This document shows, piece after piece, positions 31,385 through 31,993 of a DNA stretch of 41,666 nucleotides. The position numbers and the translations under genes were made by a program. The stretch lies in IMG/VR virus record IMGVR_UViG_2526164631_000048, positions 1 to 41,666 of that record; one strand, written 5' to 3'. The notes under the pieces are model-generated. The model searched no databases. It worked only from the letters and a program-made list of their open reading frames with translations, and was not told the origin of the DNA. The first letter of the stretch is position 1; each line of letters begins with the position of its first letter. The stretch is from a virus (lineage: Duplodnaviria; Heunggongvirae; Uroviricota; Caudoviricetes).

Positions 31385-31448
31385 TATAACTACTTTAATC
31401 AAGTAGGGTTATTGAGTGGTAAAGTTTGTGCTGAATGTAGGAGAGAAT

Positions 31449-31937
31449 ATGAAGAAAATGTTTATATTGTTGTTGGCTGTAGGACTGCCATTAAACTCCT
31501 TTGCGAAGCCAGTAACGGAAAAGCAGCTTGCTACATACTTTATAGATAACGTTAAAACTTCAGCGGATAAGAATATAGATCTAGATGTAGAGGGAATAAA
31601 TAGACTGTCTGTAATATGCCCAGCAAAGTCGGCAAGTGGAACTCTTTTAATAAAAAAAGCATCCTACGAGTTTAATAAAAGCATTGGTGCTTTTGATTTT
31701 GAAAATAACTCACAATCTGCACCATTGACTTTTATTGTACCAATTAGTGAGGATGAAAATAACTTTGACTCGGAAATTATTGGTTTCTCTTTTGCATTTA
31801 AAATGCCAAGAGGGCAATTCTTTGTTGATGTTACGAAAACAGGGAAGGTAAAGGCTGGCGTAAATATTAGTGGTGAAAGCGGAATTACTTATTCATCATG
31901 TAGAATAGATACTCATAATGTTGATTATGATCGTTAA
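31449..31937 (+). CDS. AT-rich cargo gene: secreted hypothetical protein (162 aa)
   Basis: AGGAG RBS; signal peptide MKKMFILLLAVGLPLNSFA; AT-rich codon usage unlike flanking tail genes; own terminator. Confidence 0.55.
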   Translation: MKKMFILLLAVGLPLNSFAKPVTEKQLATYFIDNVKTSADKNIDLDVEGINRLSVICPAKSASGTLLIKKASYEFNKSIGAFDFENNSQSAPLTFIVPISEDENNFDSEIIGFSFAFKMPRGQFFVDVTKTGKVKAGVNISGESGITYSSCRIDTHNVDYDR

Positions 31938-31955
31938 TTTTATTACCTAATAAAA

Positions 31956-31978
31956 AACCGCGTTTACACGCGGTTTTT
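31956..31978 (+). terminator. Rho-independent terminator (aaccgcg-tttaca-cgcggtt + T-run), probably bidirectional
   Basis: Perfect 7-bp stem flanked by A6 upstream and T5 downstream. Confidence 0.65.
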
Positions 31979-31993
31979 ATTTGAGGTGACGCC

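What the first reader, a model, noticed from the sequence alone, without database searches (positions are those of the whole stretch)
31385..31980. AT-rich cargo gene for a secreted protein inserted inside the tail module
Between tape measure and the DNA circulation gene there is a clearly AT-richer segment with its own RBS, a 162-aa ORF with a Sec-type signal peptide (no lipobox), and a strong bidirectional terminator. The protein has no features I recognise. Independently expressed periplasmic proteins in prophage tail modules often act in superinfection exclusion or virulence, so this is a strong candidate for an undescribed lysogenic-conversion function.
Basis: partly seen in the sequence, partly recalled or inferred. 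Interest (0 to 1): 0.6.

Follow-up and report, generated by a model that had tools for sequence, protein, structure and literature searches.

The report
Exported accessory gene in phage tail operon
A small AT-rich gene cassette between two tail genes of an E. coli prophage encodes an uncharacterised protein, predicted to be exported to the periplasm as a beta-barrel; it is optional for the virus, has sat in this same position across many related prophages, and is a reasonable but unproven candidate for protecting the host cell against other phages.

Summary
Window 31385-31979 is a 595-bp cassette with 34% GC (GC3 26%), against 49-59% GC (GC3 53-67%) in the neighbouring tail genes. It has an SD, a 162-aa ORF (31449-31937) with a Sec/SPase-I signal peptide, and a perfect 11-bp hairpin terminator.

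It lies between the tape measure gene and the Mu gp43-like gene of an SfV-like, Q-regulated lambdoid prophage integrated at dusA. SfV, SfIV, UTI89 and O157:H7 prophages lack it, so it is not structural.

It is also not a one-off recent insertion. In 43 of 45 loci found elsewhere, family members (32-100% identity, phrog_5586, function unknown) occupy this same slot in diverged tail modules. The representatives examined are AT-rich, carry a signal peptide and have their own terminator. Unrelated envelope-targeted cargos fill the slot in other prophages.

AlphaFold (pLDDT 88.5) predicts an N-terminal helix plus an eight-stranded meander beta-barrel. No specific structural or sequence relative was found. 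Long-term omega is 0.18; short-term pN/pS is 0.64, against 0.11-0.19 in the flanking genes.

No sigma-70 promoter rises above chance, so expression in the lysogen is unproven.

Best reading: a moron-type cassette encoding a periplasmic protein, most plausibly for superinfection exclusion. It is a new member of a known kind, of moderate interest.

The parts
31385..31979 (+). Whole AT-rich accessory cassette (spacer, CDS, terminator) between the tape measure and gp43-like genes
   Evidence: GC 0.345 against about 0.49-0.56 in the flanks. Absent from SfIV, where the two genes are 24 bp apart. E. coli genomes with the same TMP allele show a clean presence/absence difference of about 576 bp.
31385..31448 (+). 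64-bp upstream spacer. SD GGAGAG at 31440-31445. The only promoter-like element is an extended -10 candidate, TGgTAAAGT, at 31417-31425. A degenerate palindrome CTACTT-TAATC-AAGTAG lies at 31390-31406.
   Evidence: Direct reading. In the PWM scan the best in-spacer score was 7.2 (the top hit overall, 8.7, lies inside the TMP coding end), and 25% of shuffles reached the region's best score. The consensus scan found 0 promoters. In the 96-98% variants the palindrome is a perfect hairpin with a 14-bp stem (dG -18.5, z -5.4).
31449..31937 (+). CDS of 162 aa, family phrog_5586. Signal peptide at 31449-31505; mature 143-aa protein (15.7 kDa, pI 5.2) at 31506-31934.
   Evidence: phrog_5586, E 2.6e-85. 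No Pfam, NCBIfam, PADLOC or PDB sequence hit. AF2 pLDDT 88.5, pTM 0.84: helix 5-22 plus 8 strands. Two conserved Cys, mature C38 and C132. omega 0.18 against the P0007 allele.
31953..31983 (.). Intrinsic terminator: AAAAACCGCGT-TTAC-ACGCGGTTTTT hairpin plus T-tract. It can form on both strands and sits directly before the gp43 RBS (GAGG, 31983-31986).
   Evidence: Perfect 11-bp inverted repeat. dG -20.4, z -5.0 on the + strand; dG -19.5, z -4.2 on the - strand. A terminator of different sequence occupies the same position in every lineage examined and after the unrelated slot cargos.
29483..31384 (+). Tail tape measure protein gene (left flank of the slot)
   Evidence: PF10145, 1.2e-42. Annotated as TMP / Mup42 in phage 720R4 and in RefSeq.
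31994..33367 (+). DNA circulation / Mu gp43 (N)-like tail gene (right flank of the slot)
   Evidence: PF07157, 1e-33. Same annotation in relatives.
15279..16031 (+). Q-type antiterminator of the prophage. This is the proposed means by which late transcription reads through the cassette terminator.
   Evidence: PF03589 Antiterm, 1.1e-53. The read-through role is inferred from lambdoid biology and was not tested.

Best explanation
The segment is a moron-type accessory cassette that lives in the slot between the tape measure gene and the Mu gp43-like gene of SfV-like lambdoid prophages with Mu-type contractile tails.

Shown or strongly indicated:
- It is compositionally foreign.
- It is absent from viable relatives, so it is not needed to build virions.
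- It encodes a protein with a classical Sec/SPase-I signal peptide.
- The mature 15.7-kDa product is confidently predicted to be an N-terminal helix packed on an eight-stranded up-and-down beta-barrel.
- Two conserved cysteines lie at the end of strand 1 and in strand 8. I infer that they form a disulfide closing the barrel, as expected for a periplasmic protein.
- Its own intrinsic terminator lies immediately before the RBS of the next tail gene.
- The same family, or unrelated envelope-targeted cargos of the same architecture, occupies this slot in many diverged prophages.

Inferred:
- In the lysogen the cassette is transcribed on its own, from a weak, non-consensus or regulated promoter. 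The terminator stops that transcript from running into the baseplate genes.
- During lytic growth, Q-modified RNA polymerase reads through the terminator.
- The periplasmic barrel most likely acts as a binding protein that protects the lysogen at the envelope. My preferred version is superinfection exclusion: the barrel binds a periplasm-exposed part of an incoming phage's injection machinery (tape measure or tail tip), or a host periplasmic factor that machinery needs.

Sub-probabilities: accessory, non-structural cassette encoding an exported beta-barrel, about 0.85; expressed in the lysogen, about 0.6; superinfection exclusion specifically, about 0.35.
For: - Composition and boundaries.
- Dispensability: the slot is empty in SfV, SfIV, 689R6, UTI89, O157:H7 and SF-173. 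100 of the 1091 E. coli genomes with this type of tail module carry the full cassette.
- Same slot: 43 of 45 independent loci, spanning four sub-lineages (cargo 32-100% identical; TMP 45-100%; gp43 53-100%). Low GC, a signal peptide and a terminator of differing sequence were seen in all full-length representatives examined.
- Unrelated cargos with the same architecture: SKA5 (phrog_8976) and CH4804 (phrog_5485).
- Distant relatives lie in phage-plasmid maintenance regions (RepA, ParA, MazEF, repressor), away from any tail operon. P0018 there has its own terminator. This argues that function does not depend on co-expression with tail genes.
- It is a real gene under purifying selection over long periods (omega 0.18). 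Constraint is relaxed or diversifying among close alleles: 16 nonsynonymous against 7 synonymous changes, pN/pS 0.64, versus 0.11 for TMP and 0.19 for gp43, Fisher p = 7e-4.
- Fold.
- Q antiterminator in the same prophage.
- Precedents: HK97 gp15, a moron next to the TMP gene that causes exclusion, with tail-dependent specificity (PMC3594210). Tab, a moron in a late operon that is prophage-expressed and targets the TMP (PMC10884400). T4 Imm binds the TMP (bioRxiv 10.64898/2026.03.06.709160).
Against: - No sigma-70 promoter rises above chance in the 64-bp spacer.
- In the L048/L059 lineage only about 25 bp separate the TMP stop from the cargo ATG. Transcription may therefore come only from the late operon.
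- There are no expression data and no phenotype.
- There is no PADLOC hit.
- Strict synteny with tail genes could instead mean a role tied to the lytic cycle.
- The elevated pN/pS could be simple weak constraint rather than an arms race.
- Signal-peptide cleavage and the disulfide are inferred, not computed with dedicated tools or from coordinates.
Confidence: 0.45

Rival explanations
1. Late-expressed periplasmic protein. The gene has no promoter of its own and is made only as part of the Q-dependent late tail transcript. It acts in the periplasm during lytic growth. For example, it could block superinfection or stop progeny being wasted on the lysing cell, as T5 Llp does. It could also modulate the envelope before lysis. 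On this view the terminator is baggage, or only fine-tunes non-antiterminated read-through.
For: - No promoter above chance.
- A 25-bp TMP-to-cargo spacer in one lineage.
- Near-invariant synteny inside the tail operon across diverged lineages.
- The gene is co-oriented with the late genes and has a good SD.
Against: - A terminator is kept directly after the gene in every lineage examined, although its sequence differs. It also follows unrelated cargos in the same slot. That is hard to explain if the cassette is never transcribed on its own.
- Relatives sit in phage-plasmid maintenance regions far from late genes.
- The CH4804 cargo in the same slot does have a good promoter (p = 0.02).
Confidence: 0.25
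2. Host-fitness or virulence factor unrelated to phages. The periplasmic calycin-like barrel binds a small molecule or inhibits an exogenous enzyme. It could, for example, be a lysozyme or peptidoglycan-hydrolase inhibitor in the manner of PliC/MliC/PhiA/ACP, an immunity-like protein against a T6SS or colicin toxin, or a lipocalin-like binder of hydrophobic compounds such as bile acids.
For: - The predicted location is periplasmic.
- Carriers include human, poultry and livestock E. coli and Salmonella.
Against: - No family member hits Pfam MliC or any other family, even at E up to 10.
- The profile search of PDB sequences is empty.
- The family is found almost only in phage contexts.
Confidence: 0.2
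3. Conserved structural or assembly component of the tail.
For: It is always located between the TMP and gp43 genes and has diverged along with the tail module.
Against: - It is absent from the viable phages SfV and SfIV, from phage 689R6, and from the large majority of the roughly 1,091 E. coli genomes with this tail module.
- A Sec signal peptide removes the protein from the cytoplasm, where tails assemble.
- IS-disrupted copies exist (H13; L042).
- Relatives occur outside tail modules.
Confidence: 0.03
4. Decaying passenger DNA with no current function.
For: pN/pS among close alleles is 0.64. Occasional IS insertions and truncated copies occur.
Against: - The reading frame is intact in the full-length copies translated or BLAST-matched across four lineages down to 32% identity.
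- omega is 0.18 over deep time.
- Cys, Gly and Phe core positions and the signal peptide are conserved.
- The identical protein is seen on at least 1000 contigs.
Confidence: 0.05

Closest known systems
HK97 gene 15 moron (gp15 superinfection exclusion protein)
   Same: An extra, compositionally distinct cassette inside the tail operon, directly next to the tape measure gene. It encodes a small envelope-located protein that virions do not need. gp15 is expressed from the prophage and blocks DNA entry with tail/TMP-dependent specificity (PMC3594210).
   Different: gp15 is a small inner-membrane protein related to YebO, not a cleaved-signal periplasmic beta-barrel. It lies upstream of the TMP gene rather than downstream. 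There is no sequence relationship. Promoter and expression are shown for gp15 but not here.
Lambda lom and bor (tail-region / late-region morons)
   Same: Accessory genes embedded among late genes of lambdoid prophages. They encode exported envelope proteins that benefit the lysogen (from established knowledge; lom is cited in PMC3594210).
   Different: Lom is an Ail/OmpX-type outer-membrane barrel and Bor is a lipoprotein. The protein here lacks a C-terminal aromatic beta-signal and a lipobox. Its predicted strands are short (5-10 residues), as in soluble barrels. It has no Pfam hit.
T4 Imm / Sp and P1 Sim (envelope-level exclusion of DNA entry)
   Same: These are phage-encoded proteins acting at the membrane or periplasm to stop genome entry of related phages. 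Imm binds the tape measure protein (bioRxiv 10.64898/2026.03.06.709160). From memory, not checked here: Sim is a signal-peptide-processed periplasmic protein of a phage-plasmid, and Sp inhibits the gp5 tail lysozyme.
   Different: No sequence or fold relationship was established. Function here is entirely inferred.
PliC/MliC, Brucella PhiA, Neisseria ACP (periplasmic eight-stranded-barrel inhibitors of lysozymes)
   Different: No Pfam MliC match for any of 11 family members. The protein here is larger (143 aa) and has an extra N-terminal helix. The matches are no better than those to avidins, MoaF-like proteins and designed barrels. Only a partial 'SASG' resemblance exists to the SxSGAxY motif (motif recalled from memory).
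Tab of Pseudomonas phage JBD26
   Same: [quoted passage not shown]
   Different: From that paper, Tab blocks tail assembly of invading phages, which takes place in the cytoplasm, and lies between the terminase genes. The protein here is exported.

Membership tests
Moron (Juhala/Hendrix definition, as restated in PMC3594210) | Extra DNA between two genes that are adjacent in related phages | tested here: met
   The TMP and gp43 genes are 24 bp apart in SfIV, about 45 bp in SfV, and 60 bp in 689R6, UTI89 and O157:H7. Here they are 609 bp apart. Same-allele E. coli genomes differ by a clean ~576 bp.
Moron (Juhala/Hendrix definition, as restated in PMC3594210) | Nucleotide composition different from the surrounding genes | tested here: met
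   GC 0.344 and GC3 0.264, against GC 0.49-0.59 and GC3 0.53-0.67 in nine neighbouring genes.
Moron (Juhala/Hendrix definition, as restated in PMC3594210) | Own transcription terminator | tested here: met
   Perfect 11-bp hairpin plus T-tract, z -5.0. A terminator is kept at this position in all lineages examined. Activity was not measured.
Moron (Juhala/Hendrix definition, as restated in PMC3594210) | Own promoter | tested here: inconclusive
   The consensus scan found 0 sites. The PWM scan's only in-spacer candidate is TTAATC-N19-TGgTAAAGT, score 7.2, and 25% of shuffles reached the region's best score. Non-sigma-70 or activator-dependent promoters are not covered.
Moron (Juhala/Hendrix definition, as restated in PMC3594210) | Expressed from the repressed prophage | not testable with these tools
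   Needs RNA-seq, 5'-RACE or proteomics of a lysogen.
PHROG phrog_5586 (unknown function) | Full-length match to the family HMM | tested here: met
   E 2.6e-85 over residues 1-161 of 161. The relatives P0007, P0011, P0018 and P0020 also match.
Sec-exported, SPase-I-cleaved periplasmic protein | n-, h- and c-regions, small residues at -3/-1, and no lipobox Cys | tested here: met
   By inspection only: MKK / MFILLLAVGLPL / NSFA|K, with the first Cys at residue 57. The site aligns among the full-length family members. No dedicated predictor was available and export was not shown.
MliC/PliC lysozyme-inhibitor family | Match to the family profile and conserved inhibitory-loop motifs | tested here: not met
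Ail/Lom/OmpX outer-membrane beta-barrels | Family profile match and a C-terminal aromatic beta-signal | tested here: not met
   No Pfam hit. The C-termini are ...NVDYDR...CKIVKPS and ...CKVTKP. Predicted strands are 5-10 residues long.
Structural tail component of SfV-like phages | Present in all viable members and located in the virion | tested here: not met
   Absent from SfV, SfIV, SfI, SfII and 689R6. Virion content is not testable here.
Known anti-phage defence systems (PADLOC-DB) | Match to a defence-protein HMM | tested here: not met
   0 families at E up to 1.

The most novel reading that the evidence does not exclude
phrog_5586 is a previously unrecognised class of soluble (in one lineage possibly lipid-anchored) periplasmic superinfection-exclusion proteins. 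They would be specific for phages with Mu-type contractile tails. They are genetically linked to the tape measure gene and diverge faster than it. They would act by capturing the tape measure or tail-tip complex as it crosses the periplasm. More broadly, the TMP-to-gp43 junction would be a dedicated hotspot where SfV-like prophages swap envelope-targeted defence cargos.
Probability: 0.3. Interest if true: 0.6.

Novelty: new member of a known kind. Interest (0 to 1): 0.4.

Why it matters
SfV-like prophages with Mu-type tails are present in about one in five complete E. coli genomes (1091 of 5426). They also include the Shigella serotype-converting phages.

This work defines a cargo slot in their tail operon. 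The slot carries at least three unrelated, uncharacterised, envelope-targeted proteins. One of them has occupied the slot through deep divergence of the tail module.

If the protein blocks phage entry, it would add a periplasmic, soluble type of exclusion factor to a short list. It would also matter for predicting phage-therapy host range in E. coli, Shigella and Salmonella.

If instead it binds a host-derived molecule, it would be a new lysogenic-conversion factor.

Either way the gene is small, modular and easy to test.

Tried and rejected
- AlphaFold with a 5-sequence alignment of near-identical proteins gave pLDDT 41 and was discarded. Adding eight distant relatives from the exhaustive HMMER search raised it to 88.5.
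A 5-sequence alignment worked.
- The afdb50 fold library was not available.
- Sequence searches gave nothing specific: Pfam, NCBIfam, PADLOC, PDB sequences by phmmer and by profile, and Pfam on all family members.
- Three fold searches gave only generic eight-stranded barrels.
- The large repeat proteins among the HMMER hits (P0021, P0022 and similar) are summed weak matches to repeats or low-complexity sequence. I ignored them.
- Transposon-borne insertion was rejected. There are no flanking direct repeats or terminal inverted repeats.
- An RNA element was rejected. Only sub-threshold Rfam hits appear, and the terminator hairpin causes them.
- An outer-membrane barrel was rejected because there is no beta-signal and the strands are short.
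- tblastn of relatives against the phage and plasmid collections found only phage 720R4 and one E. coli plasmid.
- Literature searches by accession and by concept found no characterisation of this family.
- The non-coding flanks of the window allele and the P0007 allele could not be aligned. A single ancestral insertion is therefore plausible from synteny but not proven.
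Full report
**1. What is in the sequence**

The window is an almost complete lambdoid prophage. Its main parts are:
- an S24 CI-type repressor (8472-9146, minus strand) and a CII-like gene;
- a Q antiterminator (15279-16031, PF03589, 1e-53);
- holin, GH19 endolysin and Rz;
- a Mu-type contractile tail: sheath, tube, assembly chaperone, tape measure, and gp43, gp44, gp45, gp46, gp47 and gp48 homologues;
- an integrase (39067-40164, minus strand) abutting dusA.

By DNA identity it belongs to the SfV/SfIV group. It is 99.8% identical over the tested region to Escherichia phage vB_EcoM-720R4.

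Between the tape measure gene (stop at 31384) and the gp43-like gene (ATG at 31994) lie 609 bp, of which 31385-31979 is the cassette. In 200-nt windows its GC falls to 0.33-0.385, against 0.46-0.60 around it. It is the GC minimum of the whole window. The coding sequence has GC3 0.26, against 0.53-0.67 in nine neighbouring tail genes.

The ORF runs from 31449 to 31937 and encodes 162 aa. A GGAGAG Shine-Dalgarno sequence lies 3 nt upstream of the ATG.

The N-terminus, MKK-MFILLLAVGLPL-NSFA|KP, fits a Sec/SPase-I signal. There is no cysteine before residue 57, so there is no lipobox. I judged this by eye because no signal-peptide predictor was available.

After the stop codon comes a perfect 11-bp inverted repeat with a 4-nt loop, between an A-tract and TTTTTATTT. 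It folds at -20.4 kcal/mol (z = -5.0) on the coding strand and -19.5 kcal/mol (z = -4.2) on the other strand. The T-tract runs straight into the gp43 RBS.

**2. Is it an insertion, and is it structural?**

In SfIV the two tail genes are 24 bp apart. The alignment places the cassette exactly between the TMP stop codon and the TTTGAGG of the gp43 RBS.

SfV, 689R6, UTI89, an O157:H7 strain and SF-173 also have empty slots. Among 5426 complete E. coli genomes:
- 1091 carry a related gp43 gene;
- 100 carry the full cassette;
- genomes with the same TMP allele but no cassette differ by a clean ~576 bp (one search gives 101 genomes for the cassette alone).

Viable phages lack the gene and the product carries an export signal, so it is not a structural or assembly component. 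Two IS-disrupted or truncated copies support dispensability (H13; L042). There are no target-site duplications or terminal repeats.

**3. The surprise: the family is an old resident of this slot**

The protein matches phrog_5586 (unknown function) over its whole length. It matches nothing in Pfam, NCBIfam, PADLOC or PDB sequences.

The word-indexed 5.8-billion-protein search found only close Enterobacteriaceae relatives and one 49%-identical form, P0007, from Shigella flexneri. The exhaustive HMMER search added about eight distant proteins of roughly 150 aa at 26-49% identity. Full-length members have signal peptides. Two Cys, several Gly and Phe, and the motifs CPxxSASG and GQFFV are conserved.

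Scans of IMG/VR and GTDB returned 45 further loci. tblastn with the window's tail proteins shows that 43 of them have the order TMP, cargo, gp43. They fall into four sub-lineages:

| Sub-lineage | Cargo identity | TMP identity | gp43 identity |
|---|---|---|---|
| Window-type | 95-100% | ~99-100% | 98-100% |
| P0007-type | ~50% | ~71% | 53% |
| L044-47 type | 43-45% | 45-55% | ~72% |
| L048-59 type | 32-34% | ~63% (49-66%) | 53% |

In every representative I examined:
- the cargo has 34-39% GC against 47-57% in the flanks;
- a terminator of different sequence sits just before the gp43 RBS;
- full-length copies have a signal peptide.

P0019 also lies downstream of a TMP gene, behind a HIRAN-domain gene.

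So the low GC is a persistent property, not a sign of recent arrival. The word 'inserted' is misleading as history. The cassette is better described as an ancient, frequently lost accessory module of this tail operon. The non-coding flanks of the window and P0007 alleles do not align, so a single origin is plausible but not proven.

**4. The slot is a cargo hotspot**

Phage SKA5 carries an unrelated 164/170-aa protein with a signal peptide (phrog_8976) at the same place. E. coli CH4804 carries an unrelated 176-aa protein with an N-terminal membrane anchor (phrog_5485). Both are AT-rich (31-34% GC) and are followed by their own terminator. hhalign gives 0.4% probability of a relationship between the SKA5 cargo and phrog_5586.

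Conversely, two distant phrog_5586 members, P0018 and P0020, lie in phage-plasmid maintenance regions. Their neighbours include IncFII RepA, ParA, MazEF and a CI-like repressor. P0018 has its own bidirectional terminator there and is not AT-rich.

**5. The protein**

With a 12-sequence alignment AlphaFold gave pLDDT 88.5 and pTM 0.84. The model has a helix at mature residues 5-22 followed by eight strands. A 5-sequence alignment had given a useless model.

Fold searches gave no specific relative:
- Foldseek against the PDB: best E 0.037, TM at most 0.45.
- BFVD (viral structures): best E 0.013.

All of these are eight- to ten-stranded meander barrels. The fold class is therefore calycin-like, and no specific relative exists.

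The conserved cysteines lie at the end of strand 1 (C38) and in strand 8 (C132). These are the two strands that close such a barrel, so a disulfide is likely. I could not measure it because the model coordinates are not exposed.

The mature protein is 15.7 kDa with pI 5.2 and GRAVY -0.27. It lacks a C-terminal aromatic beta-signal (direct reading). I therefore read it as soluble and periplasmic rather than as an outer-membrane barrel. P0007-type alleles have LTSC in the signal peptide, a possible lipobox, so that lineage may be lipid-anchored.

**6. Selection**

Against the P0007 allele, dN is 0.39 and dS is saturated (2.1), giving omega of about 0.18. The gene is real and constrained, although its dN is twice that of the adjacent TMP gene (0.20).

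Among 19 window-type loci (9 distinct alleles) there are 16 nonsynonymous and 7 synonymous changes, pN/pS 0.64. The flanking genes give 15/45 for TMP (0.11) and 25/44 for gp43 (0.19). Fisher p = 7e-4 (a pairwise version is). About 10 of the 14 replacements in the mature protein fall in predicted loops or the C-terminal tail.

This pattern fits either an interaction surface under diversifying pressure or simply weak constraint. It does not tell the two apart.

**7. Expression**

This is the weak point. The consensus scan finds no sigma-70 promoter in 31000-32300. In a PWM scan the best in-spacer candidate is TTAATC-N19-TGgTAAAGT, an extended -10 at 31417-31425, and it is no better than chance. 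The CH4804 cargo does have a good promoter, p = 0.02. In the L048/L059 lineage only about 25 bp separate the TMP stop from the cargo ATG.

On the other side, a terminator is retained after the gene in every lineage examined and after the unrelated cargos. The phage-plasmid copies also lie outside any late operon. Both facts are hard to explain unless the cassette is transcribed by polymerase that has not been antiterminated, that is, outside the late programme.

The prophage encodes Q. By standard lambdoid biology, Q would let late transcription ignore the terminator. That step is inferred.

**8. Mechanism and comparison with what is known**

I file the cassette as a moron in the sense of Juhala and Hendrix, as restated in PMC3594210. 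Of the five defining features:
- three are met: extra DNA, deviant composition, own terminator;
- one is inconclusive: own promoter;
- one is untestable here: expression from the prophage.

The nearest precedents are:
- HK97 gp15, a TMP-adjacent moron expressed from the prophage that blocks DNA entry with tail-dependent specificity (PMC3594210);
- Tab, a late-operon moron that targets the TMP (PMC10884400);
- T4 Imm, which binds the TMP (bioRxiv 10.64898/2026.03.06.709160);
- periplasmic 'gatekeeping' of DNA entry (PMC13128918).

None is related in sequence or fold.

My best guess is a periplasmic binding protein that mediates superinfection exclusion (about 0.35). The alternatives are a late-expressed periplasmic function (about 0.25), a host-fitness factor such as a muramidase inhibitor or ligand binder (about 0.2), a decaying gene with no current function (about 0.05) and a structural role (about 0.03).

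**9. Verdict**

The cassette is a new, uncharacterised member of a well-known kind, a moron encoding an envelope protein. Two modestly interesting features stand out. It has persisted at one slot through deep divergence of the tail module while staying AT-rich. That slot also exchanges unrelated envelope-targeted cargos. Interest: 0.4.

Noticed in passing
window 31378-31413; L029 6930-6972; also L033 and L010: Directly after the TMP stop, the 96-98% variant alleles carry a perfect inverted repeat, AATAACCCTACTT-TAATC-AAGTAGGGTTATT, that folds into a 14-bp stem (RNA dG -18.5, z -5.4). In the window allele three substitutions reduce it to CTACTT/AAGTAG (dG -8, z -1.8). It lies just upstream of the only promoter-like element. 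It could be an operator or an RNA stability/processing hairpin.
   Followed up: partly
L007 2868-3380 (phage SKA5); L013 2585-3115 (E. coli CH4804); L006 2387-2974: The same TMP-to-gp43 slot holds unrelated AT-rich cargos. They are a 164/170-aa signal-peptide protein (phrog_8976), a 176-aa protein with an N-terminal membrane anchor (phrog_5485), and a HIRAN-domain protein placed ahead of a phrog_5586 member. The SKA5 and CH4804 cargos each have their own terminator. All are of unknown function.
   Followed up: partly
L003 4825-5307; L039 and L041 7001-7474: The ~50%-identical Shigella/E. coli allele (P0007 type) has LTSC within its signal peptide, which fits a lipobox consensus. That lineage may be a lipoprotein, while the window allele is soluble.
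   Followed up: no
H13 (E. coli PEC122, NZ_CM168021.1 4438521-4439906); L042 5862-6812: There are copies of the cassette interrupted by IS1B (PEC122), or truncated at the N-terminus with about 950 bp of extra DNA (L042). This is consistent with dispensability.
   Followed up: no
L005 2919-3413 (P0018); L004 1-452 (P0020, Pantoea sp. F_7): Distant family members lie in phage-plasmid maintenance regions. P0018 sits near IncFII RepA, MazEF and ParA, and both copies sit near ParA and a CI-like repressor. The P0018 copy has 55% GC, so it is not AT-rich, and has its own bidirectional terminator.
   Followed up: partly
window 37040-38345: The tail-fibre region looks unusual. A 156-aa ORF resembles only the N-terminal part of a tail fibre. 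It is followed by a 197-aa glycine-rich-domain protein (PF21722) and a small 73-aa ORF. This may be a truncated or replaced receptor-binding module.
   Followed up: no
window 38140-40164 and 40253-41290: A second AT-rich stretch (39-42% GC) lies between the fibre genes and the integrase. It contains an 82-aa ORF on the minus strand (38757-39005) that I recognise from memory as DinI-like. The integrase abuts dusA, so this is a dusA-integrating prophage.
   Followed up: no
window 1-991: A YafO-family toxin (557-991, PF13957) is preceded by a 179-aa ORF with no Pfam hit, at the left edge of the window. It may be a toxin-antitoxin pair at or beyond the prophage end.
   Followed up: no
window 31994-32065 compared with SfIV (L001 2116 onward): The first ~70 nt of the gp43-like gene differ sharply between the window and SfIV, although the rest is ~97% identical. 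SfV-type relatives match only from about window 32063. A mosaic junction therefore lies just inside gp43, next to the cargo slot.
   Followed up: no
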